Part shown: positions 173 to 43,351 of the stretch, piece after piece
Layout of the letters: each line of letters opens with the position of its first letter
Numbering within the stretch: the stretch's first letter is position 1
Assembly: GCA_030611665.1 (NCBI GenBank)
Contig: JAUWPI010000002.1
Coordinates: forward strand, 1 to 48,188
Direction: 5' to 3'
Origin: Candidatus Heimdallarchaeota archaeon
GTDB lineage: Archaea > Asgardarchaeota > Heimdallarchaeia > Heimdallarchaeales > Heimdallarchaeaceae
DNA length: 48,188 bases
Notes under the pieces: generated by a model
The model's database searches: none
What the model was told of the DNA's origin: nothing
Seen by the model: the letters and a program-made list of their open reading frames with translations, nothing else
Position numbers and translations under genes: made by a program

Positions 173-1945
173 TTGAAAAGAAAAATCACACTAGTTATTT
201 TGATATGTTTATTTATGCCTTCACAGTTGTTTATTCAAAATGTAAAAAGCGCTGATGTTCCTGAGTTTTTCTCTATAGCTTTGCTCTCACCTAATTCAAG
301 TCACCGTTATTGTTGGACCCTACTTATGGAAATACAACTTCCAAAAATAGGGATTGGAGTATCCTTTCATGAATCAACGGGATGGTCAAATATAGCTCCA
401 CGAACATGGGATTATCCTTTTATCGACTATGATTATATTCCAACTTATGATGAAGGAGGGTATGATATACTCTTTACTGGCAGGTTCTGGTCTTTGGATT
501 TCCAACTACGTGGATTATATGATACAGTCTCATTGGTTCCATTTGGAGGTAATTACTATCAATACATTAATCCTATATATGATTCAACCTTAGCTAAATA
601 TAATCAAGAATATAATCCAGTTCTTCGAACACAATATGCACATCAACTTCAAGCTATTCTTTATGAGGATTTACCATCAATAAGCGTTATTTATTTCAGC
701 GATCTTTATGGTTTTAATGCAGAGTTAACAGGAATCAACCCCCTTCTACTTTCTACATCAAGTCAACGAATAGAGAACTGGGATGATCCTATTGATCATA
801 TTCTCAAATATGCGGTTAATGCAGATTTGGTTGAACAAAATATCTTCGTTCAAGAGAGTTATTTTGATGGTATATGGATGCAAAATACATATGGATCTTT
901 ATTCAGTCGAAACCCAACAAATCTAATGTGGGAACCCAACATAGCTACAGATTGTATTATAACTGATGGTGGAACAAATCTAACAGTCACTTTAAATCCT
1001 AATGCTAAATTTAGTGATGGTGATGAAGTTCTAGCAGAAGATGTCAAGTATTCTTATGAGTTATACATGTCTCCAGCTGTTGGTTCATCTTCATATGGTG
1101 ACTTAACCAAATGGTTTGCAAACAATGATTCAATTGTTGAAATGAATTCTAATACTATTAGTTTTATATTAACTGAACCTTACAACTTCCCCCTGAGCTT
1201 ACTATCTTATGGAATAATCGATAAAAGTGATGTTGAAGCTAAAATTGCTGCTTATGGTTATGATATATTCAATCAAGATCCAGGAACAGGTAATGTAGGG
1301 TGGTCGTTAGTGAAATCATGCGGACCAATGATGCTAACTGAATACGATTCTGTATTGAGTGTAGTAAAACTTCTTCCAAATCCATACTGGCACGGAGAAT
1401 CAGTAAAACTAAACGAATGGCACGAAATTTTTATTATAGGCAAAGATAACGGTGTTGCTGAATTGATTGCAGGTAACATCGATATTCTAGATAAATATTA
1501 CTTCCCAGTACTTGCTGATTTTGAAGACATTGCTGGTGTAGAAGGAGTTCTTGTAAGTGATTCTTCACACCAAGAAATGTCTATTAATATGAAACATCCT
1601 ATTTTAGGTACAGGTGAACTAACTCCAGTTGGTACTACTAAAGCTGCTAGAAGCATCAGAAAGGCAATAAGTCACATTGTTCCACGTCAAACAATTGCAG
1701 ATGAGGTTTTTGAAAAACTTGGTACCCCTGGAATATTGCCTATTCCAAAAAGCTGTATTGGTTTTAACGAGTCTCTTGAGCCCTATAGTACTAATTTAAC
1801 TTTATCAAAAGAATACTTGAAAGCAGCTGGATATGATCTTGACCCTACAACAACTACATCCTTTCCAGCTCTATACATAATTATAACTATGTTTTTTGGA
1901 TTAACAGTTGTTCCAGGAGTGTTAAAGAGATGGAAAAAGAACTAG
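173..1945 (+). CDS. Extracellular solute-binding protein, family 5 (peptide/oligosaccharide ABC-type SBP) with signal peptide and C-terminal TM anchor
   Basis: 590-aa ORF with a TTG start after GAGGT. It has an N-terminal hydrophobic signal (KITLVILICLFMP) and a C-terminal hydrophobic helix followed by KRWKKN. Length and motifs (NPYWHG, HQEMSINMKHP, RKAISHIVPR) are typical of SBP_bac_5. It is a close paralog of 2625-4424. Confidence 0.72.
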   Translation: MKRKITLVILICLFMPSQLFIQNVKSADVPEFFSIALLSPNSSHRYCWTLLMEIQLPKIGIGVSFHESTGWSNIAPRTWDYPFIDYDYIPTYDEGGYDILFTGRFWSLDFQLRGLYDTVSLVPFGGNYYQYINPIYDSTLAKYNQEYNPVLRTQYAHQLQAILYEDLPSISVIYFSDLYGFNAELTGINPLLLSTSSQRIENWDDPIDHILKYAVNADLVEQNIFVQESYFDGIWMQNTYGSLFSRNPTNLMWEPNIATDCIITDGGTNLTVTLNPNAKFSDGDEVLAEDVKYSYELYMSPAVGSSSYGDLTKWFANNDSIVEMNSNTISFILTEPYNFPLSLLSYGIIDKSDVEAKIAAYGYDIFNQDPGTGNVGWSLVKSCGPMMLTEYDSVLSVVKLLPNPYWHGESVKLNEWHEIFIIGKDNGVAELIAGNIDILDKYYFPVLADFEDIAGVEGVLVSDSSHQEMSINMKHPILGTGELTPVGTTKAARSIRKAISHIVPRQTIADEVFEKLGTPGILPIPKSCIGFNESLEPYSTNLTLSKEYLKAAGYDLDPTTTTSFPALYIIITMFFGLTVVPGVLKRWKKN

Positions 1946-2624: not shown

Positions 2625-4424
2625 TTGAAAAGAAAAATAGTTTTTATAATAATTTTTTGTTTGTTTGTTTCGTCCATCGTAACTATCCATAATACAGCAA
2701 AAACAGAGGTACCGGAGTTTTTCTCTATTGCTTTACTTTCACCCAATACAAACGAAGCCCGTAATCAATGGGCACTGTTAATGGAACAACAATTACCAAA
2801 AATTGGTATTGGTGTATCCTACCATGAATCTACTAGCTGGGATAATATTGCCCCCCGTACATGGGCATATCCAATTCTTGATGATTACATTCCAACTTAT
2901 GCAGAGGGTGGTTACGACATGCTCTTTACAGGTTGGTCATGGGGACTTGATTGGGACCCAACCGGTTTGTGGGACACAGCAAGTTTGATACCAAATGGTG
3001 ATAACTTCTATCAATACAGCAACACTGCTTATGATGATAGATTAGACGAGTATCTAACTGCATTAGTTCCAGCTGAAAGAACAGCAGCAGCTCACGACAT
3101 ACAAGGAATGTTGTTTGATGACTTGCCAACTATTGTACTGATCTATCCAAGATCTCTCTTTGGTTTCAGTGAAACAGTATCTGGAATTGATGGACTGTTA
3201 ATAGCAAGCTCAAATCATAGAGCAGAATATTGGGCTGATTCAGATGACGATATCATCAAATATGCAATTCCTGCAGATTTGAAAGAACCAAACATCTATG
3301 TTGCAGAATCATTCTATGATATGCAATGGATGCAAACTGTTTATGGAGGTCTAGTAAAGAGAGCACAAGATACTCACGACTGGGAACCAGAAATTGCTGA
3401 AAATTTCACAATTTCAGAGATTATTGACAGCAAAATCAATATAACAGTGTTCTTAGATGAAGACGCTAAATTCAGCAATGGTGATCCAGTATTACCATCA
3501 GATGTCGTGTATTCATATGACTTATTCATGGATCCTCTTGTAGGCTCAACAAGCTATAGTTTCTATTGGAAATGGTTTAACACAACCGATCCACTCAATC
3601 CTGCTATCCAAGTTATTGGTGATGATGTAGCTGGTGGTGAGTTACTATTCCAATTAACAGGAGTATATAACTTCGCAACAGGCTTACTTGCTACCGCTAT
3701 CATTGATAAGAGCTATGTTCAACAAGCAATTTCAGATTTCGGTTATGATATCTTTAATGAAGAACCATTAACTGGTAATGTCCAAGACATACTTGTTCGT
3801 TCATGTGGTCCTTTCATGATGGCTGATTTCAATGCAGTTGACAGTGTTGTTAAAATGTTACCCAACCCATTCTGGCACGGAGATGCTGTTCTATTAGATG
3901 AATGGTATTTAACTTTCATATCTGGTAAAGACAGTGCAATGGCTGAATTAATCGCTGGTACCATTGACATTATGGATGCTCAATACTACCCAGTTTTATC
4001 AGATTTTGAAGGCGTTACTGGTGTACAAGGTGTCTTAATTAAAGATCCATCACATCAAGAAATGGCAATCAACATGAAACATCCTATCATTGGAACCGGA
4101 GAACTTACACCTCTTGGTACAGCTGCCGCAGCTTTGAGTATTCGTAAAGCAATAAGCCACTCTGTTCCACGTGATACAATCGTTTCAGAAATTCTTGAAG
4201 GATTAGGAGCGCCTGGTACTGTTCCATGTCCTGATGCCGCAGTGGACTTTGATGACTCCTTACCAGTTTACGCATACGATATAAGTCTAGCAATTGACTT
4301 CGTTGAAGCCGCAGGATATACTGTCGAAGTTCCAGTTCCAACTGCAACAGGTATTGCAGGTTTAGTATTCCTATCATTCTTAGGACTAGCAGCACTTATT
4401 GGGTTTAAAAAATACAAGAAATAA
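2625..4424 (+). CDS. Extracellular solute-binding protein, family 5, tandem paralog
   Basis: 599-aa ORF, collinear with 173-1945 along its whole length (shared blocks EVPEFFSIALLSPN, LPKIGIGVS.HEST.W.NIAPRTW, NP.WHG, HQEM.INMKHPI.GTGELTP). It has a signal peptide and a C-terminal TM helix followed by KKYKK. Confidence 0.72.
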   Translation: MKRKIVFIIIFCLFVSSIVTIHNTAKTEVPEFFSIALLSPNTNEARNQWALLMEQQLPKIGIGVSYHESTSWDNIAPRTWAYPILDDYIPTYAEGGYDMLFTGWSWGLDWDPTGLWDTASLIPNGDNFYQYSNTAYDDRLDEYLTALVPAERTAAAHDIQGMLFDDLPTIVLIYPRSLFGFSETVSGIDGLLIASSNHRAEYWADSDDDIIKYAIPADLKEPNIYVAESFYDMQWMQTVYGGLVKRAQDTHDWEPEIAENFTISEIIDSKINITVFLDEDAKFSNGDPVLPSDVVYSYDLFMDPLVGSTSYSFYWKWFNTTDPLNPAIQVIGDDVAGGELLFQLTGVYNFATGLLATAIIDKSYVQQAISDFGYDIFNEEPLTGNVQDILVRSCGPFMMADFNAVDSVVKMLPNPFWHGDAVLLDEWYLTFISGKDSAMAELIAGTIDIMDAQYYPVLSDFEGVTGVQGVLIKDPSHQEMAINMKHPIIGTGELTPLGTAAAALSIRKAISHSVPRDTIVSEILEGLGAPGTVPCPDAAVDFDDSLPVYAYDISLAIDFVEAAGYTVEVPVPTATGIAGLVFLSFLGLAALIGFKKYKK

Positions 4425-4465: not shown

Positions 4466-7450
4466 TCAAATAGTTTTGAATATACTTAGTTTTGTTTTAC
4501 AATATGGGCATCTACCCTTTTTGCTTATCCATAATACAAGATGGTCATAATGAAAAAGATGCTCACAAAATGGACATTCCAGACCATTTTCGTAAACCTG
4601 TTGAAAACAGACCATGCATTTGTACTTGGACTCTTGACCTTCAATAATCTGTTTGCCTTTACTCTGGACTTTTTTGAAGAAACGTGCTGTTTTGGAAAGA
4701 TTGTCAGCAACCACTATACTTTCTTCATCAATTTTTGGTGTTTCTCTGCTATCCTGTTCTTTAGTTATAACAACAGAGGCATTAGCTTTCAGATAATTTA
4801 CATAATCGCTCAGTATTCCTTTGTTGATTTGAGGATCACCTACAACAATTAGCTTCTTTTTTGCTCTTGTTATGGCTACGTTTAATCTTCTTTCATCCCC
4901 AAATCCTCTATTCCCACTCGACTGAGATTCGGTTAAGGATAGAACAATTAATTCCCTATCACTTCCTTGAAACCGATCAACTGTATCAGTTGTGAGATTT
5001 GGTGGAAGATATCTTCTCATTTCTCCTACTTGTCCTCTATAAGGACCTATTATTCCCATTTGATTAATGTTCAAACCTAGTTTCAAGAAATTTTTCACTA
5101 TTGATCCCACTGTTTCAGCTTCTTTTTTGTTGATTTTCTTATCATGGAAAAACATTCCTTTTATAGGAACATAAACTAAGGGGGTTTTAGGATCATAAAT
5201 TTCTGGGTGGTCTAATTGAGAATAATCTCCATTATAATTACCTAGGTCAAGAAGATTTTGTAATTTTACTAAGCTATCAAACGATTTCAGTTTTCCTTCA
5301 TAGAATTTTTCATTGGAAAAATCTACAAGCTTCTCATTCATACGAAATTGATGAGTTAAAAGATGAATAGCTTCTGGGTAGAGTTTAGCCAATCTCTCGA
5401 ATAATGAAACACTCAATCCTTCTGTCTGAGCTTTTTGGCTCTGTACGACTGGAGGTAGTTGTTTATGATCTCCTACAAGAACAAACCTATCCCCCTCCAT
5501 TAAAGCTGATAGTACAGTTGGTTCTGTCATCTGACTGGCTTCATCAATTATTACTGTCTGTATCCCTAATCTCTCAAAATTTGGGCTAGAAATTGTAGAT
5601 GTTGTTGCGACGATAATAGGAATCTCATTTAACAATTGAGAAAACGATTTATCTGGATTTTTATCTCTATATGTTTCAAGAGTGTAATCTTTAATTTCAT
5701 CTTGCGTGGAATATTTACGTCCCAACCGTACAAAATTGGTAAAGTGATTTGCTATTAGGTAAGAACATATGTTATCAACTGCTCGATTAGTAAACGCGGT
5801 AAGAAGAACTTTTTCACCGTTTTTTGCAAGTATTATGGCTGATTTTGCAATGACATATGTTTTACCCGTTCCTGCAGGTCCTTGAATTAAGGAGAAGTTT
5901 TTAGTCCCTAATATTCGCTCAATACTTTCATTTTGTACAGGGTTATTTTTGACAAACTCACCCTTAACTGGCTTTATAATTGGGGGGGTAGTGCCAAGAA
6001 TAGTCTGTCTGAAATTGTTTCTCTTAAAGACTAAATTGAACAACCCCCTTTGCTGTCTTCTAAATCCTACATCTAATGAATAGATATCTACAACAGAGAT
6101 AGATCCAGCAACAGCCCGAGTCGATATTTCAAGTGAGTTATTAGAGATACTAGAAACAGCTCCAGTAATTACACTTCCTTTGTGTATGCTTCCTTGACTT
6201 AAAACGACAATATCTCCTTCTCTCAGTTCGGACATATTATTGCATGAAAAAATCAATTTAGTATTTCCATTTTCCTTTATTTCGTTTTCAAGTTTCAAAC
6301 CATCTATCGCTTTTCCTTTGGCAACTCTCTGGTTTATATTTAATTTCCATAAACTTGCAAAATTCTGAGAAGATTCATTCCTTTCTTCACGTATCCAATT
6401 TGTGAAACGATTGAAGTACTCTTGATTTGTATCAGGCATAGCATTGTGCGTACATAACAAATCATGAGGACAGGTTGAGCATCTTCTTTCTTGATTTAAA
6501 CCTGCACAAACCATGGCACAAAAATGTTTTACAGAACATTTTTTGCATCTGTTCAGTTGATCTTCTGGTAAAATTGGCGGATAATATCCCAAGTATGAAA
6601 TTCGGTAGGCAATGTTTCTCTGTTCTATCGCATATCTAAGAAGGTTCCAAGAAGGTTGTGCCTTCTTAAGAATAGCTTTGTTAGTTCCTACATAAATCAC
6701 AGTACCATCACTGGGTTTTGACAAATCAAAATAATCATCAAGACCATATTTGTAGAGTGTAACTTGAAGTAAATCAGAAAATCGGATATTATCATCTGCA
6801 TGAACCTTTCCAGTTTTGAGCTCATAGATGTGTCCTGAATTGAAGAGATCTATTCTCCCTCGAATACCAAAAGTGGGTGAAAGAAACAAGATTTCAGGAA
6901 GAGAATCACCCTTCAACCTTTCGACAAAAGAATCGAGACTCTCTGCCATTTCTCTCAATTCTTTGTTAACATCCTCTTTAGTGTAACCGAATTTTTCGAA
7001 CTGCAATGAAAAAGACTCAATAACAGAAGATAGCTGTTCTGAAGGTTTGGTTCCGCTTGCTATTGCAGAACCAAAACTATCGTGTATGATTGAACCACGA
7101 ATTGCTATATAGGGTGATGCTGTTTCACCAACTATTTCATTGAGATAATAACTCCTTGGGCAAAAAGAAACATTGTTTACAGCTGTTGCATTAATTAATA
7201 CATCTGGATCCACAACGACTATAGAACTTGATCCTGCTGAAAAGTACACAGAATCCTTATCTTGTATCTTTTCAATATTGAACAGCTTAAGTAAAGTATA
7301 CGGTTTAATGTATTCTCCTATAACATGCCAAGGAGACCAAAGATTAACTATGAAATTTCTATTCTCAGAATCTACTAGAATAGTAACACGAGGATTATCT
7401 CCTCCATTTTGGGATAAAGTCTTCAGATAGATACAAGTAAGAGATTCCAT
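4466..7450 (-). CDS. Dna2-like nuclease-helicase (Cas4/RecB-type Fe-S nuclease plus Upf1-like SF1 helicase) with a C-terminal RING-H2-like zinc finger
   Basis: Nuclease signals are the N-terminal Cys (SFCPRSYYL), D..ExK (IDLFNSGHIYELKTGK), QVTLYKY and the Cys cluster CKKCSVKHFCAMVC. Helicase signals are Walker A GPAGTGKTY, DEASQ, VLVGDHKQLPPVV, DRFQGSDRELIVLS and NVAITRAKKKLIVVGD. The last 50 aa read CMVC-x13-CEH-x2-H-x2-H-x3-W-x6-CPYC. I prefer the ATG at 7450 (MESLT...) over the TTG at 7504 used in the track. Confidence 0.8.
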   Translation of the reverse strand: MESLTCIYLKTLSQNGGDNPRVTILVDSENRNFIVNLWSPWHVIGEYIKPYTLLKLFNIEKIQDKDSVYFSAGSSSIVVVDPDVLINATAVNNVSFCPRSYYLNEIVGETASPYIAIRGSIIHDSFGSAIASGTKPSEQLSSVIESFSLQFEKFGYTKEDVNKELREMAESLDSFVERLKGDSLPEILFLSPTFGIRGRIDLFNSGHIYELKTGKVHADDNIRFSDLLQVTLYKYGLDDYFDLSKPSDGTVIYVGTNKAILKKAQPSWNLLRYAIEQRNIAYRISYLGYYPPILPEDQLNRCKKCSVKHFCAMVCAGLNQERRCSTCPHDLLCTHNAMPDTNQEYFNRFTNWIREERNESSQNFASLWKLNINQRVAKGKAIDGLKLENEIKENGNTKLIFSCNNMSELREGDIVVLSQGSIHKGSVITGAVSSISNNSLEISTRAVAGSISVVDIYSLDVGFRRQQRGLFNLVFKRNNFRQTILGTTPPIIKPVKGEFVKNNPVQNESIERILGTKNFSLIQGPAGTGKTYVIAKSAIILAKNGEKVLLTAFTNRAVDNICSYLIANHFTNFVRLGRKYSTQDEIKDYTLETYRDKNPDKSFSQLLNEIPIIVATTSTISSPNFERLGIQTVIIDEASQMTEPTVLSALMEGDRFVLVGDHKQLPPVVQSQKAQTEGLSVSLFERLAKLYPEAIHLLTHQFRMNEKLVDFSNEKFYEGKLKSFDSLVKLQNLLDLGNYNGDYSQLDHPEIYDPKTPLVYVPIKGMFFHDKKINKKEAETVGSIVKNFLKLGLNINQMGIIGPYRGQVGEMRRYLPPNLTTDTVDRFQGSDRELIVLSLTESQSSGNRGFGDERRLNVAITRAKKKLIVVGDPQINKGILSDYVNYLKANASVVITKEQDSRETPKIDEESIVVADNLSKTARFFKKVQSKGKQIIEGQESKYKCMVCFQQVYENGLECPFCEHLFHYDHLVLWISKKGRCPYCKTKLSIFKTI

Positions 7451-7565
7451 ATATAATTGAATAATTTGAATACAATAAATAAATATGTAGGTAAAAAGTG
7501 ACAAAAACTTCGTAAAAACAGGAAACTTGTAAGAATAAAAAAAAGATAGAAACTAGTGGAAAGGA

Positions 7566-7739
7566 TTACTCAAAGTCAATACATTCACTTGGGCATTCGT
7601 CTATACATAGTCCACAATCTGTGCAATCTTCTTTTCTTGTAGTAACTGCAACATCCTTTAAATCATAAACATTTTCGGGACATATATCCACACAAGCACC
7701 ACAAGCTATACAACAATCAGCGTCTACTACGGTTGGCAT
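7566..7739 (-). CDS. 2x[4Fe-4S] ferredoxin (57 aa), absent from the ORF track
   Basis: Hand translation gives MPTVVDADCCIACGACVDICPENVYDLKDVAVTTRKEDCTDCGLCIDECPSECIDFE*. It contains two canonical CxxCxxCxxxCP motifs, runs from ATG to TAA, and is followed by a T-run on its own strand. Confidence 0.8.
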   Translation of the reverse strand: MPTVVDADCCIACGACVDICPENVYDLKDVAVTTRKEDCTDCGLCIDECPSECIDFE

Positions 7740-7874: not shown

Positions 7875-10118
7875 TTATTTTATTTGAGATGATCTTCCTC
7901 TAGCAAAGTCAGCAATAACTATGTAAGAAACTAGCTTTGCAAAGTAAGTAGACTTGCTTAAGATTCCAACAACTTCTCCAGTAGCTTCATCTTGTGCAGC
8001 AATAAGAACTTCTTCATTTTCTCTTTCAACACCGATGAATCTTGGCAGTTCAACACCCGTTCCAGTATCTCTGAATCTTCTGATTTCTACATTAGCTTGA
8101 GATTCTAATGCTGACGAAATCCAAGCGCCATCTGTATCCTCATCAAGTTTTGTTACTAGAGTAACTTTAGCTGTTGTTGGTAGTGATTTAACCGCTTCTA
8201 AGGGGATGTATTCCTTGTGTGGAGATAGTATTGTAACCCCTCGTTTCGTGTCTTTAACGATTCTAGCAATGTTCTCTTTGACAGCTTCTAGACCAATAAT
8301 AGATGTTGTCTGAACGGGGGGAATGGTTGTTTCTTTTGAGGTAGCTTCAAGAGATCTGAAATCGTTCTTCAGTTTCATAGTCATGCTCAGAAGATAGTTT
8401 GCTGTATCTGACATTTTACGGTTATTATCTCCGATAAATTTAACTGAATCATTGACTTCTGAAGTAAGACTGCCAGCGAGTAGTTGTTTACCCTCTTCTA
8501 TATTTACTTTGGATGCATTTGCTATTTGGTCAACTGTAATTACAGCTGAATCTAGTGATTGCTGTAAAAAGCTGTTTAGCTCTTCCTTAAATGAAGAAGT
8601 AGTTGTTTGAACTAGATTTGAAACTTCTTGAAAGTGCTCTGTTATAGCTGTTTCGCTTTCTTGTATTAATGTTTCAGTTTTGCCTACCAAGTCTGACCAT
8701 TTTTCTTTCAATTGGTTAGAACCAGCAACAAATGAATCTGAAAACACTGAGTTGAGTTGGTCAGATAATGTACGAAATGATTGAACATTGCTATTCAAAT
8801 TCGCAATAACACTATTCGAAATCTCATTGAACTTATTGGAAAATTCTTCGTTGAATGAAGTAAATCTTTCAGTTGCTCCTACTTTAACTTCACTGAGTTT
8901 TTCATTATAACTTTGAATTGTCTCATTATAATGACTTTCTAGCTTTTGCATAAACATATCTCGTTCACTCACTAGATTGTTTCTCTGGTTTTGTTCATTG
9001 TTTTGTAGATCAGTGTATTTGAGAGCCATGCTCTCTTTAATCTGTGAGACTGTTGCAGAAATAGTTGTGTTTTTTTGTTGTTGTAGTTCACTCACAAGAG
9101 TAGTTTTTATGTTTTCAATTTTTTCATTGAGCGAGTTAACAGCTTCTTGAATATTTAACGAAAGTTCCTCTACTCTTTGGTTAAGTATCAAGTCTAATGA
9201 TTCTCCTAAACCTTGAAGGTTTGTTGAAACTGCTTCAGAAACAGAATCAACATTCTTCTCAGCATTTCTGGTTATCTCTGAAGAATATCCGAGATATTTC
9301 TCTGACTGCGTTCTATTAAAAGCTCTAACATCTAATTTTGAGACATTGATTCGTTGTTCTATTAGCTGCATCAATTCGTTAACTTCAGACAAATATTTTT
9401 GATGTAATTCGTTTAGCTTTGGTTGTAATGACTCAGAAACAGATTGGATTGTATTTATAGAATCCTGTGAAAGTTGAGAGATTTGATTGTTTGAAACTGT
9501 AACTGATTCTTCAGTCTGTTGCTTAATATTTCCTACTACTGTGTTCAATGTAGTTTTAGCTTGATTTAAATTACTCACATTTTCATCCAAGTATCCTTTA
9601 ATAGTAGCATTGAATTCAGCTTTCTTTTCTTCTCCTAATGTATTGTAATTGGAAATTAAAGCTGCAGATTTTTCCGCTACCGCTTGTTTCTGTTGTTGAT
9701 TTAGTGCATTAAAAGATGAATGAGATGCAGACAACGAACTGTCAATTGCTGTTTTCTTTTGTTCTGCGTTTTCTTCAAACTGTCTAGTAAGGCTTTCCCT
9801 TAATTGATTGAAACTCTCATTTTTACTTTGTATGAAACTTGTTGTTTCTGCAAGATTTGTCTTAATTTCAGAACTTAGTTTTTCACTGGTTTCAGCTAAG
9901 TATTCCAATGGGATTTTAACATAATATTTGTTGATATACCCTTCAGAAACTCCGATGGCACCTTTGTTTATCAAAGCATCGAGAGCAACATTTACCTTAG
10001 ATAAATGTAAGCTGCTAAATTGAGCAGTTTCAAAAGAGGTTAACTGCCCACATCCCAGAAGAAGTTGATAAATTTGTTTTTCTTCCTGTGTTAATTCTAA
10101 TCTTTCTATAAAGGACAT
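7875..10118 (-). CDS. TrmB-family winged-helix protein with a very long alpha-helical/coiled-coil insert and a TrmB-like C-terminal domain
   Basis: The N-terminus LTQEEKQIYQLLLGCGQLTSFETAQFSSLHLSKVNVALDALINKGAIG matches the TrmB-type wHTH pattern. About 550 residues of S/N/Q/E/L-rich heptad-like sequence follow. A mixed alpha/beta C-terminal domain of about 130 aa ends the protein (VTILSPHKEYIPLE...VEIRRFR...FIGVEREN). Confidence 0.55.
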   Translation of the reverse strand: MSFIERLELTQEEKQIYQLLLGCGQLTSFETAQFSSLHLSKVNVALDALINKGAIGVSEGYINKYYVKIPLEYLAETSEKLSSEIKTNLAETTSFIQSKNESFNQLRESLTRQFEENAEQKKTAIDSSLSASHSSFNALNQQQKQAVAEKSAALISNYNTLGEEKKAEFNATIKGYLDENVSNLNQAKTTLNTVVGNIKQQTEESVTVSNNQISQLSQDSINTIQSVSESLQPKLNELHQKYLSEVNELMQLIEQRINVSKLDVRAFNRTQSEKYLGYSSEITRNAEKNVDSVSEAVSTNLQGLGESLDLILNQRVEELSLNIQEAVNSLNEKIENIKTTLVSELQQQKNTTISATVSQIKESMALKYTDLQNNEQNQRNNLVSERDMFMQKLESHYNETIQSYNEKLSEVKVGATERFTSFNEEFSNKFNEISNSVIANLNSNVQSFRTLSDQLNSVFSDSFVAGSNQLKEKWSDLVGKTETLIQESETAITEHFQEVSNLVQTTTSSFKEELNSFLQQSLDSAVITVDQIANASKVNIEEGKQLLAGSLTSEVNDSVKFIGDNNRKMSDTANYLLSMTMKLKNDFRSLEATSKETTIPPVQTTSIIGLEAVKENIARIVKDTKRGVTILSPHKEYIPLEAVKSLPTTAKVTLVTKLDEDTDGAWISSALESQANVEIRRFRDTGTGVELPRFIGVERENEEVLIAAQDEATGEVVGILSKSTYFAKLVSYIVIADFARGRSSQIK

Positions 10119-11179: not shown

Positions 11180-12652
11180 CTATTTTTCTAAAAAGGAATC
11201 TAGAGAAATCTGTGATGTTTTGTTTTTAGTTTCTTCTTGAACGTCTTCTTGAATATCTTCTTGAACAATCTTTGAAGATGTCTTCTTTTTTGATTTATTC
11301 ATATTCGCAAAAAACATCAAATCAATTTCAATTTCTTTCGCTTTTTCTAATCTAGATTCAGTAATTTGTACATACGCTTCTTCGTACAGAGTCATAATTT
11401 GTTTTGTCATTTTTGAAGTGCCATTAGTCAAGAAGTCTACATCGTCTTCATTGTATTGTAGCCAAACAACAATCCCAGCAGCCATAGTAGCGTCAGCATT
11501 AAAGATAATTTTCAGATAGGGATAAATATCTTTAGTAAATATTCTAGTAGAGCAATGAAGTTTTACTATACTCTTCGTTGCTAGTTGTTTCATTTTTGCG
11601 GTTTTTCCTCTCAACCTTCCCATTAATGCCCAATAACTCGGAAAACTAAACTTAGTATATTTGAAAGGAGATTGTTTTACAATATTTATTGAAGAAATCA
11701 ACATAAAAAAATACTTCAAGAAAATCCAATTCTGTTTTCTATAGCATAATGACAAGTAAATATCAGCTTCAGCAATTAACTCATATATGTTAAAAAGTTC
11801 AATTGAATTTGCAGCCTGCTTCCAAGCATGTTCGTAGACATAGTATAGTAGTTCTCTATAATCTACATTAACTCCATCAAGAGCGCGTTTTGCCTCACCA
11901 TAATCTTTAGCAGAGAAGATATTTGTTAAAGCTGCATCCAAATTGTGTTTCTGATTTCTTGGTGAAAAAATCATCTCTAAATCCTTTGTACTAAAAGCAA
12001 CGCCTTGTAAATCATTAATTGCAGATCGTGCATCTCCACCAGAGTTTTTTGTAATTGCAACTAATACTTTTTCTTCTATATCGAGATTCTCTTTTTCTGC
12101 AATTTTTTGTAGTAATAGCAGTATTTCTTGCTCTGTGAAACTTTTAAATGTTATAACTTTCATTTTTCTTTTTGCAGCTTTCAGAGATTTTGCTGAAGGA
12201 TCATTTGCTGTGCATATTATGGGGATTTTGGCTCTATCTATTGCTTTTGCGAGTGCTGGTCCTCCTCCACGATCCTCATTTCCGAAAAGCCCATCAGCTT
12301 CATCAACTAAAATTAGTTTCCTGACTCTAGCGCCTTGAATTACGGTTCCTTCTGTTGAAGATAGACCAATTAGTCGTTCTACTGCAGCTTTGTTTCTTTT
12401 ATCACTAGCATTAACTTCTACAAACTCATAATTGTATTTTTTGATTAAATATAGTACAACACTTGTTTTACCTACACCAGCGGGACCTGCAATCAAAACA
12501 ACCTTCTTTTTTTGTGCATTCCAGGTTATTAACCAGTCCTCAATTTCCTGAACTAGGGTTGAGTTTCCAATAAAATCTTCAAAAACTTCTGGTCGGTATT
12601 TTTCTACCCAAGGTATTGCTTGAATGTTGGTTTGAGAAGCCATTCTAGTCAT
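11180..12652 (-). CDS. rfcL: Replication factor C large subunit
   Basis: WVEKYRPEVFEDFIGN, Walker A GPAGVGKTS, Walker B LVDEADG, and archaeal RfcL size (490 aa) with an acidic/basic C-terminal tail. Confidence 0.9.
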   Translation of the reverse strand: MTRMASQTNIQAIPWVEKYRPEVFEDFIGNSTLVQEIEDWLITWNAQKKKVVLIAGPAGVGKTSVVLYLIKKYNYEFVEVNASDKRNKAAVERLIGLSSTEGTVIQGARVRKLILVDEADGLFGNEDRGGGPALAKAIDRAKIPIICTANDPSAKSLKAAKRKMKVITFKSFTEQEILLLLQKIAEKENLDIEEKVLVAITKNSGGDARSAINDLQGVAFSTKDLEMIFSPRNQKHNLDAALTNIFSAKDYGEAKRALDGVNVDYRELLYYVYEHAWKQAANSIELFNIYELIAEADIYLSLCYRKQNWIFLKYFFMLISSINIVKQSPFKYTKFSFPSYWALMGRLRGKTAKMKQLATKSIVKLHCSTRIFTKDIYPYLKIIFNADATMAAGIVVWLQYNEDDVDFLTNGTSKMTKQIMTLYEEAYVQITESRLEKAKEIEIDLMFFANMNKSKKKTSSKIVQEDIQEDVQEETKNKTSQISLDSFLEK

Positions 12653-25122: not shown

Positions 25123-25454
25123 TGAGGTTACATAAACTAACTCCAAAACTATATAGGGTTCTTGGTCTTGAGTTATTTGTTTTTGGAACCTTCATAGGCA
25201 TTTGTGCAATTATCGACTCATTAATTGTTGGTTTCCCAGAGAATCCAAACCCCACAATCAATTTCATCATTGGTGCTTCCAAGGTAATTATTAGTATAAT
25301 ATTGATAGCTATTTGGTTATACGTTTGGTACTATATTACAAAGCGACTTATGGTTAGTAAGGAGGACATAAAGGAAGCAAAGAAAATTAAGAGAGAAAAG
25401 AAACAAGTAAAAATGCAAAAAAAGAAAGAGAAGAAAAAGAATATTAAGACTTAG
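25122..25454 (+). CDS. Small two-TM membrane protein with a Lys-rich tail
   Basis: The ATG overlaps the aglH stop (TAATG). It has two hydrophobic helices followed by KIKREKKQVKMQKKKEKKKNIKT. Confidence 0.45.
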   Translation: MRLHKLTPKLYRVLGLELFVFGTFIGICAIIDSLIVGFPENPNPTINFIIGASKVIISIILIAIWLYVWYYITKRLMVSKEDIKEAKKIKREKKQVKMQKKKEKKKNIKT

Positions 25455-26100
25455 CTTCTAACAGATACAACCTTTTCTTTAGCATGAAAAACTTCTTTGA
25501 AAACTCTAAACTTGAAATTTCATAGTCTTCGAACTGAGATTCAATTGCAAAAAGTTCGTTTTCTACGTTAAGAATTTCATCTTCTAAATGCTTCTTCTTT
25601 TCCTGATTTAGAACTCGAGTTGTAATTTGTGAGGAGTTCTTTGATTGTATATCTGCTAATTCTGTCTTCTTATTTTGTAAAATAATTGATAATTGCTCTT
25701 TCTGTGCAATTAAAGGATCCAATTGATTTTTGGGTGCTTTCCACTTTGGTCCAGTAGTAATCTTTCTAGCAGGTACTTTTGAGAACAAACGGATAACCTC
25801 TACAATCACTTGGAATAAGTGATAACTAGGTCTCCATCTGGCAAGGACTCGCATTTCAAGGAACCCTTCAGTATTGATATTTGGATGTGTTATTTGTGTT
25901 AATATTTCAATTTCTGGTGGAGAATCGGGAAATGCATTTGGTAAACTTATCTCAACTTCTACAGGAATTTCTCCTTCATCGGAAATTGCTGAAACAAAAC
26001 CTCTCCACTTTGTTAAATTTCCATCTATTGGTTCGAATGCATATGCTCGTTCCATAACAAGACTATATTCTTTCGCTAAGATACTATCTGGAATAGGCAT
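25444..26100 (-). CDS. E2-variant (UEV, no catalytic Cys) plus coiled coil plus Vps23-core/steadiness-box-like tail; TSG101/Vps23-like
   Basis: UBC-fold signature LPNAFPDSPPEIEILTQITHPNINTEGFLEMRVLARWRPSY, where the E2 active-site Cys position is occupied by non-Cys residues. The whole 218-aa protein contains no Cys. Residues from about 128 to 190 are heptad-like. The C-terminal YEISSLEFSKKFFMLKKRLYLLEA resembles the I(S/D)...F.K..R.L.r.qF..RA motif of the Vps23 core. Confidence 0.65.
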   Translation of the reverse strand: MPIPDSILAKEYSLVMERAYAFEPIDGNLTKWRGFVSAISDEGEIPVEVEISLPNAFPDSPPEIEILTQITHPNINTEGFLEMRVLARWRPSYHLFQVIVEVIRLFSKVPARKITTGPKWKAPKNQLDPLIAQKEQLSIILQNKKTELADIQSKNSSQITTRVLNQEKKKHLEDEILNVENELFAIESQFEDYEISSLEFSKKFFMLKKRLYLLEAKS

Positions 26101-34493: not shown

Positions 34494-36056
34494 GTGAGCG
34501 GAATAAATTCTAATGCGATAGAAATTATTTATCATCAACCAGGACACCTAAAGGGTGTCACAGTAATTCAAGTGATAGATGGTAAAATCTTCACAGGTGG
34601 CGGAGAAGGGAGGATCTGTATTTGGGATGAGAAGATAGAAAAAGAAATCGCTTGTATTTATGCTCACAATGCAGCAATTACTGATATTCAAAGGATTTCT
34701 GATACTAATTATTTCGTCACCACGTCACAGAATTTAGAAATCAATTTATGGTCTCTTAAAACTTTAGAATTGCTTCAATCAAAGAGAGCACATTCATCTA
34801 CTATTATTGGTGCAAAACCTTGGAGGAATTACATCATAAGTGCGAGTAGAGATCAGTTTCTCAAAAAATGGAAACTGGAAAATAATAAACTAATCGAGGT
34901 TGATAAGGTCAAAATTCCTGATTTGGAAAGATTCTTCATAGAAGATGACATTATAATCACAGCTCACAATGATGGTCTAATTTCAATATATGGGGCAGAG
35001 GATTTGGGGTTTGTAAAATATTTATCGATCAAACCTTCAGCAATAATAAAAGCTATAAAAAAGGCATCAAAAGATATAACTGAATTTCAAGGAAAAAATC
35101 CCAGGTATATTCTACAACAGTTTGCTAGACTAAATGGTATTCCTGTAACTATCTGCAAAGCTACAGAGGAGAGTATTATAATAGGTCATGTAGCAGGAAT
35201 GATTTCTACATGGGACAAACACAAGTATAAAAATACTGAAATTATTTTCCCCCATGGTAAAAACATAACAGGTGTAGAAATTAAGAATAATAGTATATAT
35301 TCCAGTTCAATGAGTTCTCATTTGAAAAAGAGTGATTTTAATTCTAAACGATTAATTGTACAAACCAAGATAGAACATAGACCTCTTTCACTTTCATTAT
35401 TACCATCTAAAAAAATTATAGTGGGATTAGAATCCGGAGAGATACATCTCTATGACGAATCTTTAAACTTAGTGAAGAAGAAGAACAATATTGTGCCAGT
35501 TTCTAGTCTTTGCATTATGCCTGAGAACGTTGTAGTTGCTTCCAGAGATGGTGAAATCGTTGTTTTAGACATTAATTCTCTTAAACAACTAAATACAAAA
35601 AAGCTATACAAAAAATCCATTCAGGGCATTTTCTACTATGATAATAGGTTAATCTGTATTGGAGACAATTCTACAATTCATATTCTCGATTCAGATTTGA
35701 ATGTTTTAAAAACCATCAAATTATCTGAAAAGCCAACTAAACTTTATCAGGTGAAAAGATACATAATATTAACTCCAAATCTTGTACTAGATTTACAAAA
35801 AGATGAAATCATCAAAGGAGAAATATCAAAAGAAACAGAAAATGAAGTATCTGAAACCAATCTTTTTCAAATAGACTTCTCTCACGGAGATTCTTCAATA
35901 TTCATACATAACAACAAGTTGGAAAACATCGATTATTCAGATAAGTATTCTTACTATCCAGCAGAAATTATCAAAGCTTTGAGAATACTAGTAGATTCTC
36001 AGAATAAAATGCAATACTCTAGGATAAATTCAGAGACTGTTTCATTTCAAATATAA
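34494..36056 (+). CDS. WD40-repeat beta-propeller protein
   Basis: Repeated units of about 40 aa with the H...I......-hydrophobic strand-..D..I..W pattern (GGGEGRICIWD, SQNLEINLWS, SRDQFLKKWK, HVAGMISTWD, LESGEIHLYD, SRDGEIVVLD). GTG start. Confidence 0.62.
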   Translation: MSGINSNAIEIIYHQPGHLKGVTVIQVIDGKIFTGGGEGRICIWDEKIEKEIACIYAHNAAITDIQRISDTNYFVTTSQNLEINLWSLKTLELLQSKRAHSSTIIGAKPWRNYIISASRDQFLKKWKLENNKLIEVDKVKIPDLERFFIEDDIIITAHNDGLISIYGAEDLGFVKYLSIKPSAIIKAIKKASKDITEFQGKNPRYILQQFARLNGIPVTICKATEESIIIGHVAGMISTWDKHKYKNTEIIFPHGKNITGVEIKNNSIYSSSMSSHLKKSDFNSKRLIVQTKIEHRPLSLSLLPSKKIIVGLESGEIHLYDESLNLVKKKNNIVPVSSLCIMPENVVVASRDGEIVVLDINSLKQLNTKKLYKKSIQGIFYYDNRLICIGDNSTIHILDSDLNVLKTIKLSEKPTKLYQVKRYIILTPNLVLDLQKDEIIKGEISKETENEVSETNLFQIDFSHGDSSIFIHNNKLENIDYSDKYSYYPAEIIKALRILVDSQNKMQYSRINSETVSFQI

Positions 36057-41800: not shown

Positions 41801-43351
41801 GTGAATCTTATGACAGCTAATGATGGACTTTATAATAAATATCAATTGTTAAAAAAGAAAGCTAAGAAAATTGCACAATTTTTGGTCGATTCTGAAGATA
41901 ATGTTGCTATAGTTACTTTAGAAACCCCAGATAATCTCTGCGCAACAGGGATATTATTACTAAATTTAAAGGAACAGAAGATAGGATCTCAAGTTATATA
42001 TGCAAAGGAAAAAGACCAACTTGAAAAAAGAATCAAAAAGTTAGATTGTCAAACCATAGTTTTCATTGGGCTTAGTCTTAGGGAAATGCCTCTTGGTATC
42101 CTCAAGGATAGCGATAAAAAGAGAATAATGATACATCATGAGTTATCCAAGAAAGAACTGGAAAAAATATCCAAAGAGAACATAGAAGAATTATCTCTAA
42201 AAGGAATTGATTTACCAACAAATACTATCTCAAATGCTGGTTTAAGTTACTTCATATCAGCGGGTTTTAATGGTGATTATCAGAAACATTCCCACTTAGC
42301 TATTATTGGTAGTTTAGCAAAAAGGCAAGTGAACAATAAAGATCAAAAATTAATTGGATTAAATGGAATTATACTTGAGGAAGGTAAGAAAGAACAGTTT
42401 CTAACGGTGACCAAAGGCACAAGGATAGCCGGACGAGAAAGTCAACCCATTCATCTTGCACTCAAATATTCAATAAATCCCTACTTTCCTGGATTAACAG
42501 GAAATGAAAGCGCATGCACTTCTTTCTTATCTCGAACAGGTATCACAATGAAAGATCAAGAAGATGAGTGGAGGAGCATTGCTTCTTTGAGCTCTGAAGA
42601 GACGAAAAAACTTAATGATGGTCTTATTTCAATTCTCATGGAGAATAAAGATTACTCGCTTAGTGACATAAAAAAACTAATAGGACCGATATACATAATT
42701 GAAAACGAATCAGAACACAACCCAACTCGCAATATTGAGGAATTTTTATGGTTATTAGAAGGCGGTTGTCAAATAGGTAAATATGGTTTAGTTTTAGCTG
42801 TTATTTTGGGGGACAGAGAGAACTTATTTGATCAACTCAACAGTAACTTAAGTGATTATCATGGGCGAGCAACACTTGTAATAGATGAAATAGCTCAGAA
42901 ACCAGAGATAATTGAAGAGAAACGATACTACCGTATGATAAAAGGAGATAATATCTTGGATAAAGAAACAGCACCAGCAATAATTAATGCCCTTGTTGAA
43001 AGCAAGACGATTCCTATAGATATCCCAGTATTAGCATCTCTCAACCAAAATGAAGAGACTTATCTTTTTGTTCATGAATCACCTTTACAACAGAAAAAAG
43101 GGATAAAATTACACCATATTTTTCAAGAAGCTGCAAATAGCAAATTGGTAAAGAAATTATCCAAAGAAGGTGATTTCTTCGAAGTTATTGTTGAAACAGA
43201 TAATTTTTCTGATTTAATAAAAAATATTGAAGAAACTCTTGAATATCATCATGAAGGAACCAAAGAAAAGAAAGAAGAAGAGAAGAAATCAGAATCCTCA
43301 ACGAAAAAGCAAGTATCCAAGAAGAAGAAAGAGCACCAAGATAAGAAATAA
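41801..43351 (+). CDS. RecJ/GAN (Cdc45-like) DHH-superfamily homolog with degenerate catalytic motifs and a K/E-rich tail
   Basis: There is strong by-eye similarity to archaeal GAN in the central region (GRESQPIHLALKYSINPYFPGLTGNE; SNAGLSYFIS; HLAIIGSL). The DHH motifs are altered. DxDG is replaced by TPDN, motif II D by G (IVFIGLS), DHH by IHH, motif IV GD by AK, and no GGGH is present. The gene is adjacent to rps15. An alternative ATG lies at 41810. Confidence 0.6.
   Translation: MNLMTANDGLYNKYQLLKKKAKKIAQFLVDSEDNVAIVTLETPDNLCATGILLLNLKEQKIGSQVIYAKEKDQLEKRIKKLDCQTIVFIGLSLREMPLGILKDSDKKRIMIHHELSKKELEKISKENIEELSLKGIDLPTNTISNAGLSYFISAGFNGDYQKHSHLAIIGSLAKRQVNNKDQKLIGLNGIILEEGKKEQFLTVTKGTRIAGRESQPIHLALKYSINPYFPGLTGNESACTSFLSRTGITMKDQEDEWRSIASLSSEETKKLNDGLISILMENKDYSLSDIKKLIGPIYIIENESEHNPTRNIEEFLWLLEGGCQIGKYGLVLAVILGDRENLFDQLNSNLSDYHGRATLVIDEIAQKPEIIEEKRYYRMIKGDNILDKETAPAIINALVESKTIPIDIPVLASLNQNEETYLFVHESPLQQKKGIKLHHIFQEAANSKLVKKLSKEGDFFEVIVETDNFSDLIKNIEETLEYHHEGTKEKKEEEKKSESSTKKQVSKKKKEHQDKK

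What the first reader, a model, noticed from the sequence alone, without database searches (positions are those of the whole stretch)
4466..7450. Dna2-type nuclease-helicase fused to a C-terminal RING-H2-like finger
The last 50 codons (4469-4618) translate to CMVCFQQVYENGLECPFCEHLFHYDHLVLWISKKGRCPYC. This fits C-x2-C-x13-C-x-H-x2-H-x2-H-x3-W-x6-C-P-x-C, the spacing of a RING-H2 cross-brace finger. It includes the conserved Trp that contacts E2 enzymes, and His replaces Cys at ligand 6. The rest of the protein is a complete Cas4/RecB-type Fe-S nuclease plus a Upf1/Dna2-type SF1 helicase. RING E3 modules are eukaryotic hallmarks and are rare in archaea outside Asgard lineages. I do not know of an archaeal Dna2 carrying one. 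The fusion would physically couple Okazaki-fragment or DNA-end processing to ubiquitin-like conjugation. An inactive E2 variant is encoded 18 kb away.
Basis: partly seen in the sequence, partly recalled or inferred. Interest (0 to 1): 0.8.

Follow-up and report, generated by a model that had tools for sequence, protein, structure and literature searches.

The report
Heimdallarchaeal Dna2 with RING-finger tail
A DNA-cutting and unwinding enzyme (Dna2) of Heimdall-group Asgard archaea always carries at its end a small zinc finger of the type that eukaryotes use to attach ubiquitin, a fusion I found described in no paper and which may link DNA replication or repair to protein tagging in close archaeal relatives of eukaryotes.

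Summary
Window 4466-7450 (-) is one uninterrupted 994-aa gene, and its last 50 residues are a Cys/His finger. The body is a complete Dna2-type enzyme: the best solved-structure match by sequence and by predicted fold is mouse DNA2. The tail is a real RING-type finger. It reaches the Pfam zf-RING_2 cut-off, its profile hits only RING-H2 E3 ligases in the PDB, and its AlphaFold model superposes on RING domains.

The fusion is not an assembly artefact. I found the finger in 47 database sequences at 25-94% identity. These include a 3.08-Mb chromosome record of Ca. Heimdallarchaeum aukensis. Every named member is Heimdallarchaeota, Heimdallarchaeaceae or Kariarchaeaceae. Haloarchaeal, bathyarchaeal, bacterial and eukaryotic Dna2 relatives lack the finger.

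The conserved pattern is therefore C-x2-C-x9-12-C-x2-C-x4-H-x2-H-x10-C-x2-C.

Positions that contact E2 in known RING E3s are conserved. No ubiquitin, E1 or active E2 gene lies next to the gene in any locus examined, and E3 activity is untested. The "inactive E2" 18 kb away exists, but nothing links it to this gene. I found no paper describing the fusion.

The parts
4466..7450 (-). Complete coding sequence of the Dna2-RING protein (994 aa plus stop codon). An in-frame TTG at 7504 lies upstream, but orthologs support the ATG at 7450.
7211..7450 (-). N-terminal beta-barrel (OB-like), residues about 1-80, as in mouse Dna2
   Evidence: AlphaFold model, strands 2-80. The whole-model Foldseek match to 5EAX spans about 1040 columns.
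6491..7198 (-). RecB/Cas4-type PD-(D/E)xK nuclease domain with a four-Cys Fe-S cluster signature, residues about 85-320. Fe-S ligands: C97, C302, C305, C311. Active site: D201, E210, K212, Q229, Y233.
   Evidence: Pfam Dna2 PF08696 and PDDEXK_1. All listed residues are invariant in 19 diverse family members.
6083..6433 (-). Helical stalk plus beta-barrel (1B-like) domain, residues about 340-456
4781..5953 (-). SF1B (Upf1/Dna2-type) helicase domains 1A and 2A, residues about 500-890. Walker A is GPAGTGKT, Walker B is DEASQ, and motif VI is RRLNVAITRAK.
   Evidence: AAA_11 and AAA_12. Mouse DNA2 E 7e-59. Invariant motifs.
4622..4780 (-). Variable linker, residues 891-943. It is low-confidence in the models and not conserved between the two family groups. 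Within the close Heimdall-group orthologs a short motif, [IV][IV]A[DE]x[ILV]-S/N/L-[KRT]-x-A, is kept.
4469..4621 (-). C-terminal RING-type finger, residues 944-994. Ligands: C945, C948, C959, C962, H967, H970, C981, C984. Positions matching E2 contacts in known RINGs: V947, W974, P982, K985.

Best explanation
Shown: this is the chromosomal Dna2-type nuclease-helicase of a Heimdallarchaeaceae archaeon. It has an OB-like barrel, an Fe-S PD-(D/E)xK nuclease, a stalk and barrel, and an SF1B helicase. Throughout the Heimdallarchaeia-labelled lineages found here, a RING-family zinc finger of C4H2C2 type is attached through a variable linker of 50-80 residues.

Inferred mechanism: the nuclease-helicase body threads 5' single-stranded DNA ends (flaps, resected ends, stalled or reversed forks), as eukaryotic Dna2 does. 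The tethered RING docks a ubiquitin-charged E2 of the Asgard E1/E2 system. Ubiquitin is then transferred to proteins sitting at the same DNA structure, or to Dna2 itself to control its turnover. Candidate substrates (PCNA, RPA, RFC, Dna2 itself) are speculation.

My confidence in the identity and architecture is about 0.9. The 0.45 below is my confidence in the E3 mechanism.
For: Dna2 identity:
- Pfam Dna2, PDDEXK_1, AAA_11 and AAA_12 all match.
- The best PDB sequence match is mouse DNA2 at 7e-59, against Upf1 at 6e-38.
- The full-length AlphaFold model (pLDDT 84.7, pTM 0.85) matches mouse Dna2 5EAX at E 2.5e-53 with TM 0.72/0.69 over about 1040 columns.
- Fe-S, nuclease and helicase residues are invariant in 19 diverse members.

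RING identity:
- zf-RING_2 matches 32 of 32 tails at E <= 0.01 (best 2.5e-9), and the window tail scores above the Pfam cut-off.
- The tail profile hits Arkadia, HRD1/synoviolin, gp78, RNF165, RNF126, RLIM and EL5.
- The tail model has pLDDT 89-96 over the finger and a beta-beta-alpha layout.
- All top 50 Foldseek hits are RING domains, nearly all of known E3 ligases, with rmsd 1.2-1.9 A for the best.

Selection on the finger:
- Seven of the eight ligands are identical in all 48 sequences, which span 25-94% identity to the window protein. Ligand 6 is His in 47 and Glu in one.
- The linker before the finger is not conserved.

E2-contact positions known from RING-E2 structures (own knowledge of c-Cbl, RNF4 and Arkadia-type complexes) are kept:
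- I/V/L at C1+2 in 48/48.
- Trp at ligand 6+4 in 44/48.
- Pro at C7+1 in 46/48.
- Lys/Arg at the 'linchpin' position C8+1 in 45/48.

A cognate system exists. Heimdallarchaeota AB125 encodes two E2s with a catalytic Cys (PMC9192718). Heimdallarchaeia encode ubiquitin, and an Asgard E1/E2/RING E3 cascade works in vitro (bioRxiv 10.1101/2023.07.25.550441).
Against: - No enzymatic evidence exists.
- No ubiquitin, E1, active E2 or deubiquitinase gene lies beside the gene in the window or in five other loci.
- I could not test whether these genomes carry the Ub system at all.
- The canonical ligand-4 His is missing in 28 of 48 members. The finger therefore departs from studied RING-H2 E3s, and its zinc geometry is unverified because model coordinates could not be inspected.
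- A few distant members lack the Trp (P0040, P0055, P0063) or the basic linchpin residue (P0040-P0042).
- Many RING-like fingers are non-catalytic.
Confidence: 0.45

Rival explanations
1. The finger is a non-catalytic zinc module. It would mediate dimerisation, binding to a replisome or repair partner, or DNA contact, without E3 activity. The RING-like CH domain of the related helicase Upf1 binds Upf2 in this way, and TFIIH p44 and MAT1 carry structural RINGs.
For: - There is no genomic linkage to Ub-system genes.
- The ligand set is non-canonical: C-x2-C at ligands 3/4 and His at ligand 6.
- Several top structural matches are RINGs that dimerise through flanking helices (TRIM37, RNF8, Rad18, TRAF6).
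- The Trp and the basic linchpin residue are lost in a few distant members.
Against: - Four surface positions that matter for E2~Ub engagement, and that are not needed for folding, are conserved in 44-48 of 48 sequences.
- The nearest sequence relatives are all active RING-H2 E3s.
Confidence: 0.42
2. The protein is not the replicative or repair Dna2. It would be a helicase-nuclease effector of a defence system, with the RING acting as a sensor or regulator.
For: - NCBIfam and PADLOC give partial hits to defence helicases: PLuB helicase-like at 257 bits and MkoA at 208 bits.
- The distant member P0041 sits next to MmeI-type and other DNA methyltransferase genes.
Against: - The defence hits cover only the generic helicase part and fall far below the family cut-offs (257 against 999).
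- In four Heimdallarchaeaceae genomes the gene lies in a conserved housekeeping neighbourhood: RFC large subunit, phosphoribosyltransferase, ferredoxin and a solute-binding protein.
- The whole fold matches Dna2.
Confidence: 0.08
3. The tail is an assembly chimera, a frameshift read-through or a separate small ORF wrongly joined to the Dna2 gene.
For: None found. Read-level support in this assembly could not be examined.
Against: - The frame is continuous in the window.
- The same fusion occurs in 47 independent database sequences from NCBI, JGI, ENA and Logan assemblies, including a 3.08-Mb chromosome record, CP084166.1.
Confidence: 0.01

Closest known systems
Eukaryotic Dna2 (mouse DNA2, PDB 5EAN/5EAW/5EAX)
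   Same: Same domain order and predicted fold: OB-like barrel, Fe-S PD-(D/E)xK nuclease, stalk, beta-barrel and SF1B helicase. It is the best sequence match (E 7e-59) and the best fold match (TM about 0.7).
   Different: Eukaryotic Dna2 sequences found here (P0035, P0036, P0198, P0199) end about 40-55 residues after helicase motif VI and have no finger. They are longer at the N-terminus. Identity is only 23-32%.
Other archaeal and bacterial Dna2-like nuclease-helicases (haloarchaeal P0032-34 and P0046, Bathyarchaeota P0043, Sericytochromatia P0047)
   Same: Nuclease plus helicase core at about 31-36% identity. In a rough NJ tree the haloarchaeal and bathyarchaeal proteins sit next to the window's group.
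   Different: None has the roughly 100-residue C-terminal extension or the finger.
RING-H2 E3 ligases (Arkadia/RNF111, RNF165, HRD1/synoviolin, gp78/AMFR, RNF126, EL5)
   Same: These are the closest relatives of the tail by profile (E 1e-7 to 1e-5) and by fold. Shared sequence features are the [FY]-H-x2-[CH]-[LI]-x2-W core, C-P-x-C-[KR] at the end and I/V/L after Cys1.
   Different: His replaces Cys at ligand 6. The ligand-4 His is dispensable, and an invariant extra Cys makes a C-x2-C pair at ligands 3/4. The finger is attached to a DNA enzyme rather than to a membrane or adaptor region.
Rad5/HLTF/SHPRH (own knowledge: Snf2-type DNA translocases with an embedded RING that polyubiquitylate PCNA)
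   Same: A DNA motor and a RING E3 on one polypeptide acting at stalled forks. This is the nearest functional analogy.
   Different: Those are SF2 Snf2 ATPases with the RING inserted inside the ATPase and no nuclease. They are not homologous in architecture, and no membership is claimed.
Upf1 CH domain and ZNFX1 (own knowledge; both appear as helicase-core matches)
   Same: Upf1-like SF1B helicases of the same superfamily that carry RING-like or NFX1-type zinc modules.
   Different: Their zinc modules are N-terminal (Upf1) or of another type (ZNFX1). They act on RNA and have no nuclease.
Archaeal small RING E3s of the Caldiarchaeum and Asgard E1/E2/RING cascades (PMC5654768; bioRxiv 10.1101/2023.07.25.550441)
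   Same: They show that archaeal RING fingers can work with cognate E1 and E2, which makes an E3 role for the Dna2 tail plausible.
   Different: They are stand-alone small proteins encoded in Ub-system operons. The Dna2 finger is fused to an enzyme and is unlinked to such operons. I did not compare the sequences directly.

Membership tests
Dna2 nuclease-helicase | RecB-type PD-(D/E)xK nuclease motifs (D...E-x-K, Q-x3-Y) matching the Dna2 nuclease model | tested here: met
   Pfam PF08696 scores 61 bits (cut-off 22.4) and PDDEXK_1 47 bits. D201, E210, K212, Q229 and Y233 are invariant in 19 members.
Dna2 nuclease-helicase | Four-Cys Fe-S cluster signature bracketing the nuclease (C...C-x2-C-x5-C) | tested here: met
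   C97, C302, C305 and C311 are invariant and align in register with the mouse DNA2 cysteine motif. Cluster binding itself was not tested.
Dna2 nuclease-helicase | C-terminal SF1B (Upf1-like) helicase with intact ATPase motifs | tested here: met
   AAA_11 scores 133 bits and AAA_12 144 bits. Walker A, Walker B and motifs III, V and VI are invariant.
Dna2 nuclease-helicase | Overall architecture of solved Dna2 (OB barrel, nuclease, stalk, barrel, helicase 1A/2A) | tested here: met
   The AlphaFold model (pLDDT 84.7) matches 5EAX at E 2.5e-53, TM 0.72/0.69. This is a prediction only.
Dna2 nuclease-helicase | Orthology to eukaryotic Dna2 by phylogeny | tested here: inconclusive
   Deep branches of the rough NJ tree are unresolved.
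Dna2 nuclease-helicase | 5'-flap or ssDNA endonuclease and 5'-3' helicase activity | not testable with these tools
   Requires biochemistry.
RING finger (zf-RING_2 / RING-H2) | Profile match at or above the curated cut-off | tested here: met
   The 56-aa tail scores 28.7 bits against a cut-off of 27.3. That is marginal: an 84-aa piece scores 27.1, and the tail scores 21.1 within the whole protein. 32 of 32 family tails match at E <= 0.01, best 2.5e-9.
RING finger (zf-RING_2 / RING-H2) | Eight conserved Cys/His zinc ligands | tested here: met
   C945, C948, C959, C962, H967, H970, C981 and C984 are invariant in 19 diverse members. In 48 sequences only ligand 6 varies, once, to Glu.
RING finger (zf-RING_2 / RING-H2) | Canonical RING-H2 spacing with C3-x-H4-x2-H5-x2-C6 | tested here: not met
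   The ligand-4 His is present in 20 of 48, and ligand 6 is His rather than Cys. The conserved spacing is C-x2-C-x4-H-x2-H. The finger is therefore a RING-family variant, not a canonical RING-H2.
RING finger (zf-RING_2 / RING-H2) | Beta-beta-alpha RING fold | tested here: met
   The tail model has pLDDT 89-96 over the finger, with strands 44-46 and 53-55 followed by helix 56-66. All top 50 Foldseek hits are RING domains, the best at rmsd 1.2 A over 58 columns. This is a prediction only.
RING finger (zf-RING_2 / RING-H2) | Two zinc ions bound in cross-brace fashion | not testable with these tools
   Model coordinates could not be inspected and zinc is not modelled.
RING finger (zf-RING_2 / RING-H2) | E2 binding and E3 ligase activity | not testable with these tools
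   Only indirect evidence: positions that contact E2 in known RINGs are conserved.
PHD finger | Match to the PHD profile | tested here: not met
   The C-x2-C-x4-H-x2-[CH] spacing resembles PHD fingers, but only 4 of 32 tails hit Pfam PHD (best E 0.0019), against 32 of 32 for zf-RING_2.
Anti-phage helicase-nuclease systems (Mokosh MkoA, PLuB, Hhe, ProA) | Full-length match at the family cut-off | tested here: not met
   Matches are partial and cover the helicase only. PLuB scores 257 bits against a cut-off of 999. MkoA covers query residues 603-878.

The most novel reading that the evidence does not exclude
The Dna2 of Heimdallarchaeia is a self-targeting E3 ligase. The RING tail recruits an Asgard E2~Ub and ubiquitylates replisome or repair proteins (for example PCNA, RPA or Dna2 itself) at 5' flaps, resected ends or stalled forks. 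This would be the first case of ubiquitin signalling wired directly into DNA replication or repair in an archaeon. It would be an archaeal counterpart, built on a different motor, of the eukaryotic Rad5/Rad18-PCNA logic, arising in or near the lineage that gave rise to eukaryotes.
Probability: 0.35. Interest if true: 0.8.

Novelty: new variant of a known kind. Interest (0 to 1): 0.55.

Why it matters
In eukaryotes, ubiquitin controls much of DNA replication and repair. Nothing comparable is known in archaea, where the few studied ubiquitin cascades have been tied to ESCRT and proteasome functions.

A RING finger welded to the Dna2 nuclease-helicase, and kept under selection across Heimdallarchaeia, offers a concrete and cheap experiment: cognate E1, E2, Ub and this protein in a test tube. 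That experiment asks whether ubiquitin-DNA-metabolism coupling predates eukaryotes.

If the finger proves non-catalytic, it still marks a lineage-specific partner-binding module on a core replication enzyme. It also provides a natural C4H2C2 variant for studying how RING ligand sets can shift.

Tried and rejected
- Scan of GTDB genome contigs with the family alignment.
- Second and third large homolog searches. The RING-only profile found just two C-terminal fragments (P0037, P0038). The diverse full-length profile added nothing beyond. The origin of the finger (a stand-alone Asgard RING or something else) stays open.
- PHD finger reading of the C-x2-C-x4-H-x2-H spacing. Rejected: Pfam PHD matches 4 of 32 tails, zf-RING_2 matches 32 of 32.
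- Plain zinc ribbon or treble clef. Rejected: the model has the central helix of RINGs, and all top fold hits are RING domains.
- Defence-system reading. Only generic helicase hits were found.
- PIP-box or other conserved short motif in the linker. None was found, and the linker is not conserved between family groups.
- Functional link to the UEV 18 kb away. There is no adjacency, and the gene is absent from the 6-10 kb flanks retrieved around the Dna2 orthologs in five other loci.
- Literature. I found no paper describing a Dna2-RING fusion.
- The NJ tree is too rough to say whether the finger was gained once or twice, or how the family relates to eukaryotic Dna2.
Full report

Window 4466-7504 (-) is one open reading frame.

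Pfam finds AAA_12 (144 bits), AAA_11 (133), Dna2 nuclease PF08696 (61 bits, cut-off 22.4) and PDDEXK_1 (47) in the body. In the tail it finds zf-RING_2, zf-C3HC4_2, zf-RING_16 and zf-rbx1. Taken alone, the 56-aa tail scores 28.7 bits on zf-RING_2 (E 1.7e-6), just above the curated cut-off of 27.3.

**2. The body is Dna2.**

- The best solved-structure relative by sequence is mouse DNA2 (5EAN/5EAW/5EAX, E 7e-59). It is well ahead of Upf1 (6e-38), IGHMBP2, Sen1 and ZNFX1. The nuclease and Cys motifs also align in register.
- A full-length AlphaFold model built on 19 diverse family members has mean pLDDT 84.7 and pTM 0.85.
- The best Foldseek matches of that model are the three mouse Dna2 entries: E 2.5e-53, TM 0.72/0.69 over about 1040 columns. 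Ighmbp2 and Upf1 follow at E-35 to E-32.
- Across those 19 sequences (25-62% identity to the window protein) the following are invariant:
  - the Fe-S ligands C97, C302, C305 and C311;
  - the nuclease residues D201, E210, K212, Q229 and Y233;
  - all the helicase motifs.

**3. The tail is a RING-family finger.**

- A profile of 30 tails searched against all PDB sequences returns RING proteins almost exclusively, nearly all E3 ligases. At the top are Arkadia (7.7e-8), synoviolin/HRD1 (2.8e-7), gp78/AMFR (6e-7), RNF165, RNF126, RLIM and EL5.
- The tail-only AlphaFold model is confident over the finger (pLDDT 89-96). It has two short strands followed by a helix that starts at ligand 5, which is the RING beta-beta-alpha layout rather than a zinc ribbon.
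- All top 50 Foldseek hits are RING domains, nearly all of E3 ligases: TRIM37 (rmsd 1.2 A over 58 columns), RNF165, Ring1B, HRD1, RNF8, gp78, EL5, TRAF6 and Rad18.
- Scanned one by one, 32 of 32 family tails match zf-RING_2 (best 2.5e-9). Only 4 of 32 touch the PHD model.
- I could not inspect coordinates. Cross-brace zinc binding is therefore inferred from the fold match, not measured.

**4. It is not an artefact, and it is a family trait.**

The first homolog search found 31 Heimdall-group proteins at 52-94% identity. All 29 that include their C-terminus carry the finger. One is from a 3.08-Mb chromosome record of Ca. Heimdallarchaeum aukensis (CP084166.1).

The exhaustive search of 1.84 billion cluster representatives added 17 more clusters at 25-36% identity with the same tail. 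Together with the cluster that holds the close orthologs, that makes at least 18 clusters at 50% identity. These proteins have about 130-165 residues after helicase motif VI. Finger-less relatives have about 40-65.

Every finger-bearing cluster that has a source name is Heimdallarchaeota, Heimdallarchaeaceae or Kariarchaeaceae. P0054 comes from assembly GCA_030149205.1, one of the 103 MAGs of a study whose only archaeal MAG is Kariarchaeaceae. At 37% GC it is probably that MAG.

The finger-less neighbours in similarity space are haloarchaeal, bathyarchaeal, bacterial and eukaryotic Dna2-like proteins. A rough NJ tree puts the finger-bearing proteins in two groups, with unresolved deep branches. 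I cannot say whether the finger was gained once, and I could not determine whether Hodarchaeales or non-Heimdall Asgard lineages have it.

**5. Correction of the ligand assignment.**

Across 48 sequences:

| Position | Conservation |
|---|---|
| Cys three residues before C962 (C959) | invariant |
| Ligand 6 | His in 47, Glu in 1 |

The conserved pattern is C-x2-C-x(9-12)-C-x2-C-x4-H-x2-H-x10-C-x2-C. One sequence has a 6-residue second loop. The second zinc site is thus most likely C959/C962/C981/C984.

The spacing at ligands 3-6 resembles PHD fingers, but the sequence is RING-H2-like: [FY]-H-x2-H-[LI]-x2-W ... C-P-x-C-[KR]. I file it as a RING-family variant (C4H2C2), not a canonical RING-H2.

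**6. Does it look like an E3?**

Positions that contact E2 or E2~Ub in known RING E3s (my own knowledge of c-Cbl, RNF4 and Arkadia-type complexes) are kept:

| Position | Residue | Conservation |
|---|---|---|
| C1+2 | I/V/L | 48/48 |
| Ligand 6+4 | Trp | 44/48 |
| C7+1 | Pro | 46/48 |
| C8+1 ('linchpin') | Lys/Arg | 45/48 |

The preceding linker is not conserved between the two groups and has no PIP-like box.

Heimdallarchaeota encode E2s with a catalytic Cys (PMC9192718). They also encode ubiquitin, and an Asgard E1/E2/RING cascade has been reconstituted (bioRxiv 10.1101/2023.07.25.550441). A Caldiarchaeum cascade was reconstituted earlier (PMC5654768).

Against this, no Ub, E1, active E2 or JAB gene lies in the 48-kb window or next to the gene in five other loci. 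I put the E3 reading at about 0.45 and a non-catalytic binding or dimerisation module at about 0.42.

**7. Surroundings.**

The window is a housekeeping chromosomal region. It encodes:

- two SBP_bac_5 solute-binding proteins;
- a small 2x[4Fe-4S] ferredoxin;
- a TrmB-HTH/coiled-coil protein;
- a phosphoribosyltransferase;
- the RFC large subunit;
- Fpg/Nei;
- exosome subunits, SBDS, L37ae and Pcc1;
- ABCE1, IleRS and TFB;
- a GAN/RecJ-Cdc45-like protein.

In four Heimdallarchaeaceae genomes the block RFC-L / PRTase / TrmB-coiled-coil / ferredoxin / Dna2-RING / SBP is conserved, with small rearrangements. The more distant members sit elsewhere.

The 'inactive E2' at 25444-26100 (-) is real. 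It matches UQ_con at 53.5 bits, keeps the HPN motif and has no cysteine in the whole protein. Its C-terminal coiled coil resembles the Asgard UEV-Vps23 or 'UEV_X' proteins described in the bioRxiv paper, and nothing ties it to Dna2.

**8. Novelty and verdict.**

Both parts are well-known kinds, and RING fingers are already known in Asgard archaea. Automated annotation already lists PF13639 on several of these proteins. The sources name them only 'AAA domain-containing protein', 'AAA family ATPase', 'DNA helicase' or 'Dna2'. Five literature searches found no description of the fusion.

I rate it a new variant of a known kind: a lineage-wide Dna2-RING architecture with a shifted ligand set. It is moderately interesting now, and considerably more so if E3 activity is shown.

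Noticed in passing
window 25444-26100 (-): A 218-aa E2-fold protein (UQ_con 53.5 bits). It keeps the HPN motif but has Glu where the catalytic Cys should be, and no cysteine anywhere. A predicted coiled-coil tail follows. It resembles the Asgard UEV-Vps23 or 'UEV_X' ubiquitin-binding proteins (bioRxiv 10.1101/2023.07.25.550441) rather than a partner of the Dna2 RING.
   Followed up: partly
window 7566-7739 (-); also L001 9130-9306, L014 5151-5324, L015 5036-5212: A 57-58-aa 2x[4Fe-4S] ferredoxin lies just upstream of the Dna2-RING gene on the same strand in four Heimdallarchaeaceae genomes. In the other three a PLD-like or unannotated 160-170-aa gene on the opposite strand sits between them. 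That gene is missing in the window, where the gap to the ATG at 7450 is only 115 bp. A link to the Fe-S cluster of Dna2 is unexamined.
   Followed up: partly
window 11180-12652 (-); L001 13007-14533: The RFC large subunit (Rad17, AAA and RFC1-lid domains) lies within a few kb of Dna2-RING in all four Heimdallarchaeaceae loci. In Ca. H. aukensis it is the immediate convergent neighbour.
   Followed up: partly
window 7875-10118 (-): A 747-aa protein with an N-terminal TrmB-type HTH and a very long coiled-coil or apolipoprotein-like repeat region. It is conserved next to the ferredoxin in the related genomes. Function unknown.
   Followed up: no
window 41801-43351 (+): A 516-aa protein with a DHH-CID domain (GAN/RecJ-Cdc45-like). 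This is another replication-associated gene in the window.
   Followed up: no
window 34494-36056 (+): A 520-aa WD40 beta-propeller protein with many eukaryote-type WD40 family hits, all below their cut-offs.
   Followed up: no
L016 8916-14916 (GCA_016839295.1, distant member P0041): Here the Dna2-RING gene abuts an MmeI-type methyltransferase/restriction gene (stop and start overlap) and three more N6/N4 methyltransferase genes. The setting looks like a defence island, unlike the housekeeping context of the window.
   Followed up: no
P0068 (523-aa fragment), P0040, P0055, P0063: Natural variants of the finger. P0068 has Glu at ligand 6. P0040 has a 6-residue second loop and so no residue equivalent to the Trp. 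P0055 and P0063 have Ala in place of the Trp.
   Followed up: partly
window 173-1945 (+) and 2625-4424 (+): Two tandem paralogous SBP_bac_5 solute-binding proteins of about 590-600 aa. The second ends 41 bp from the Dna2 stop codon, in convergent orientation.
   Followed up: no
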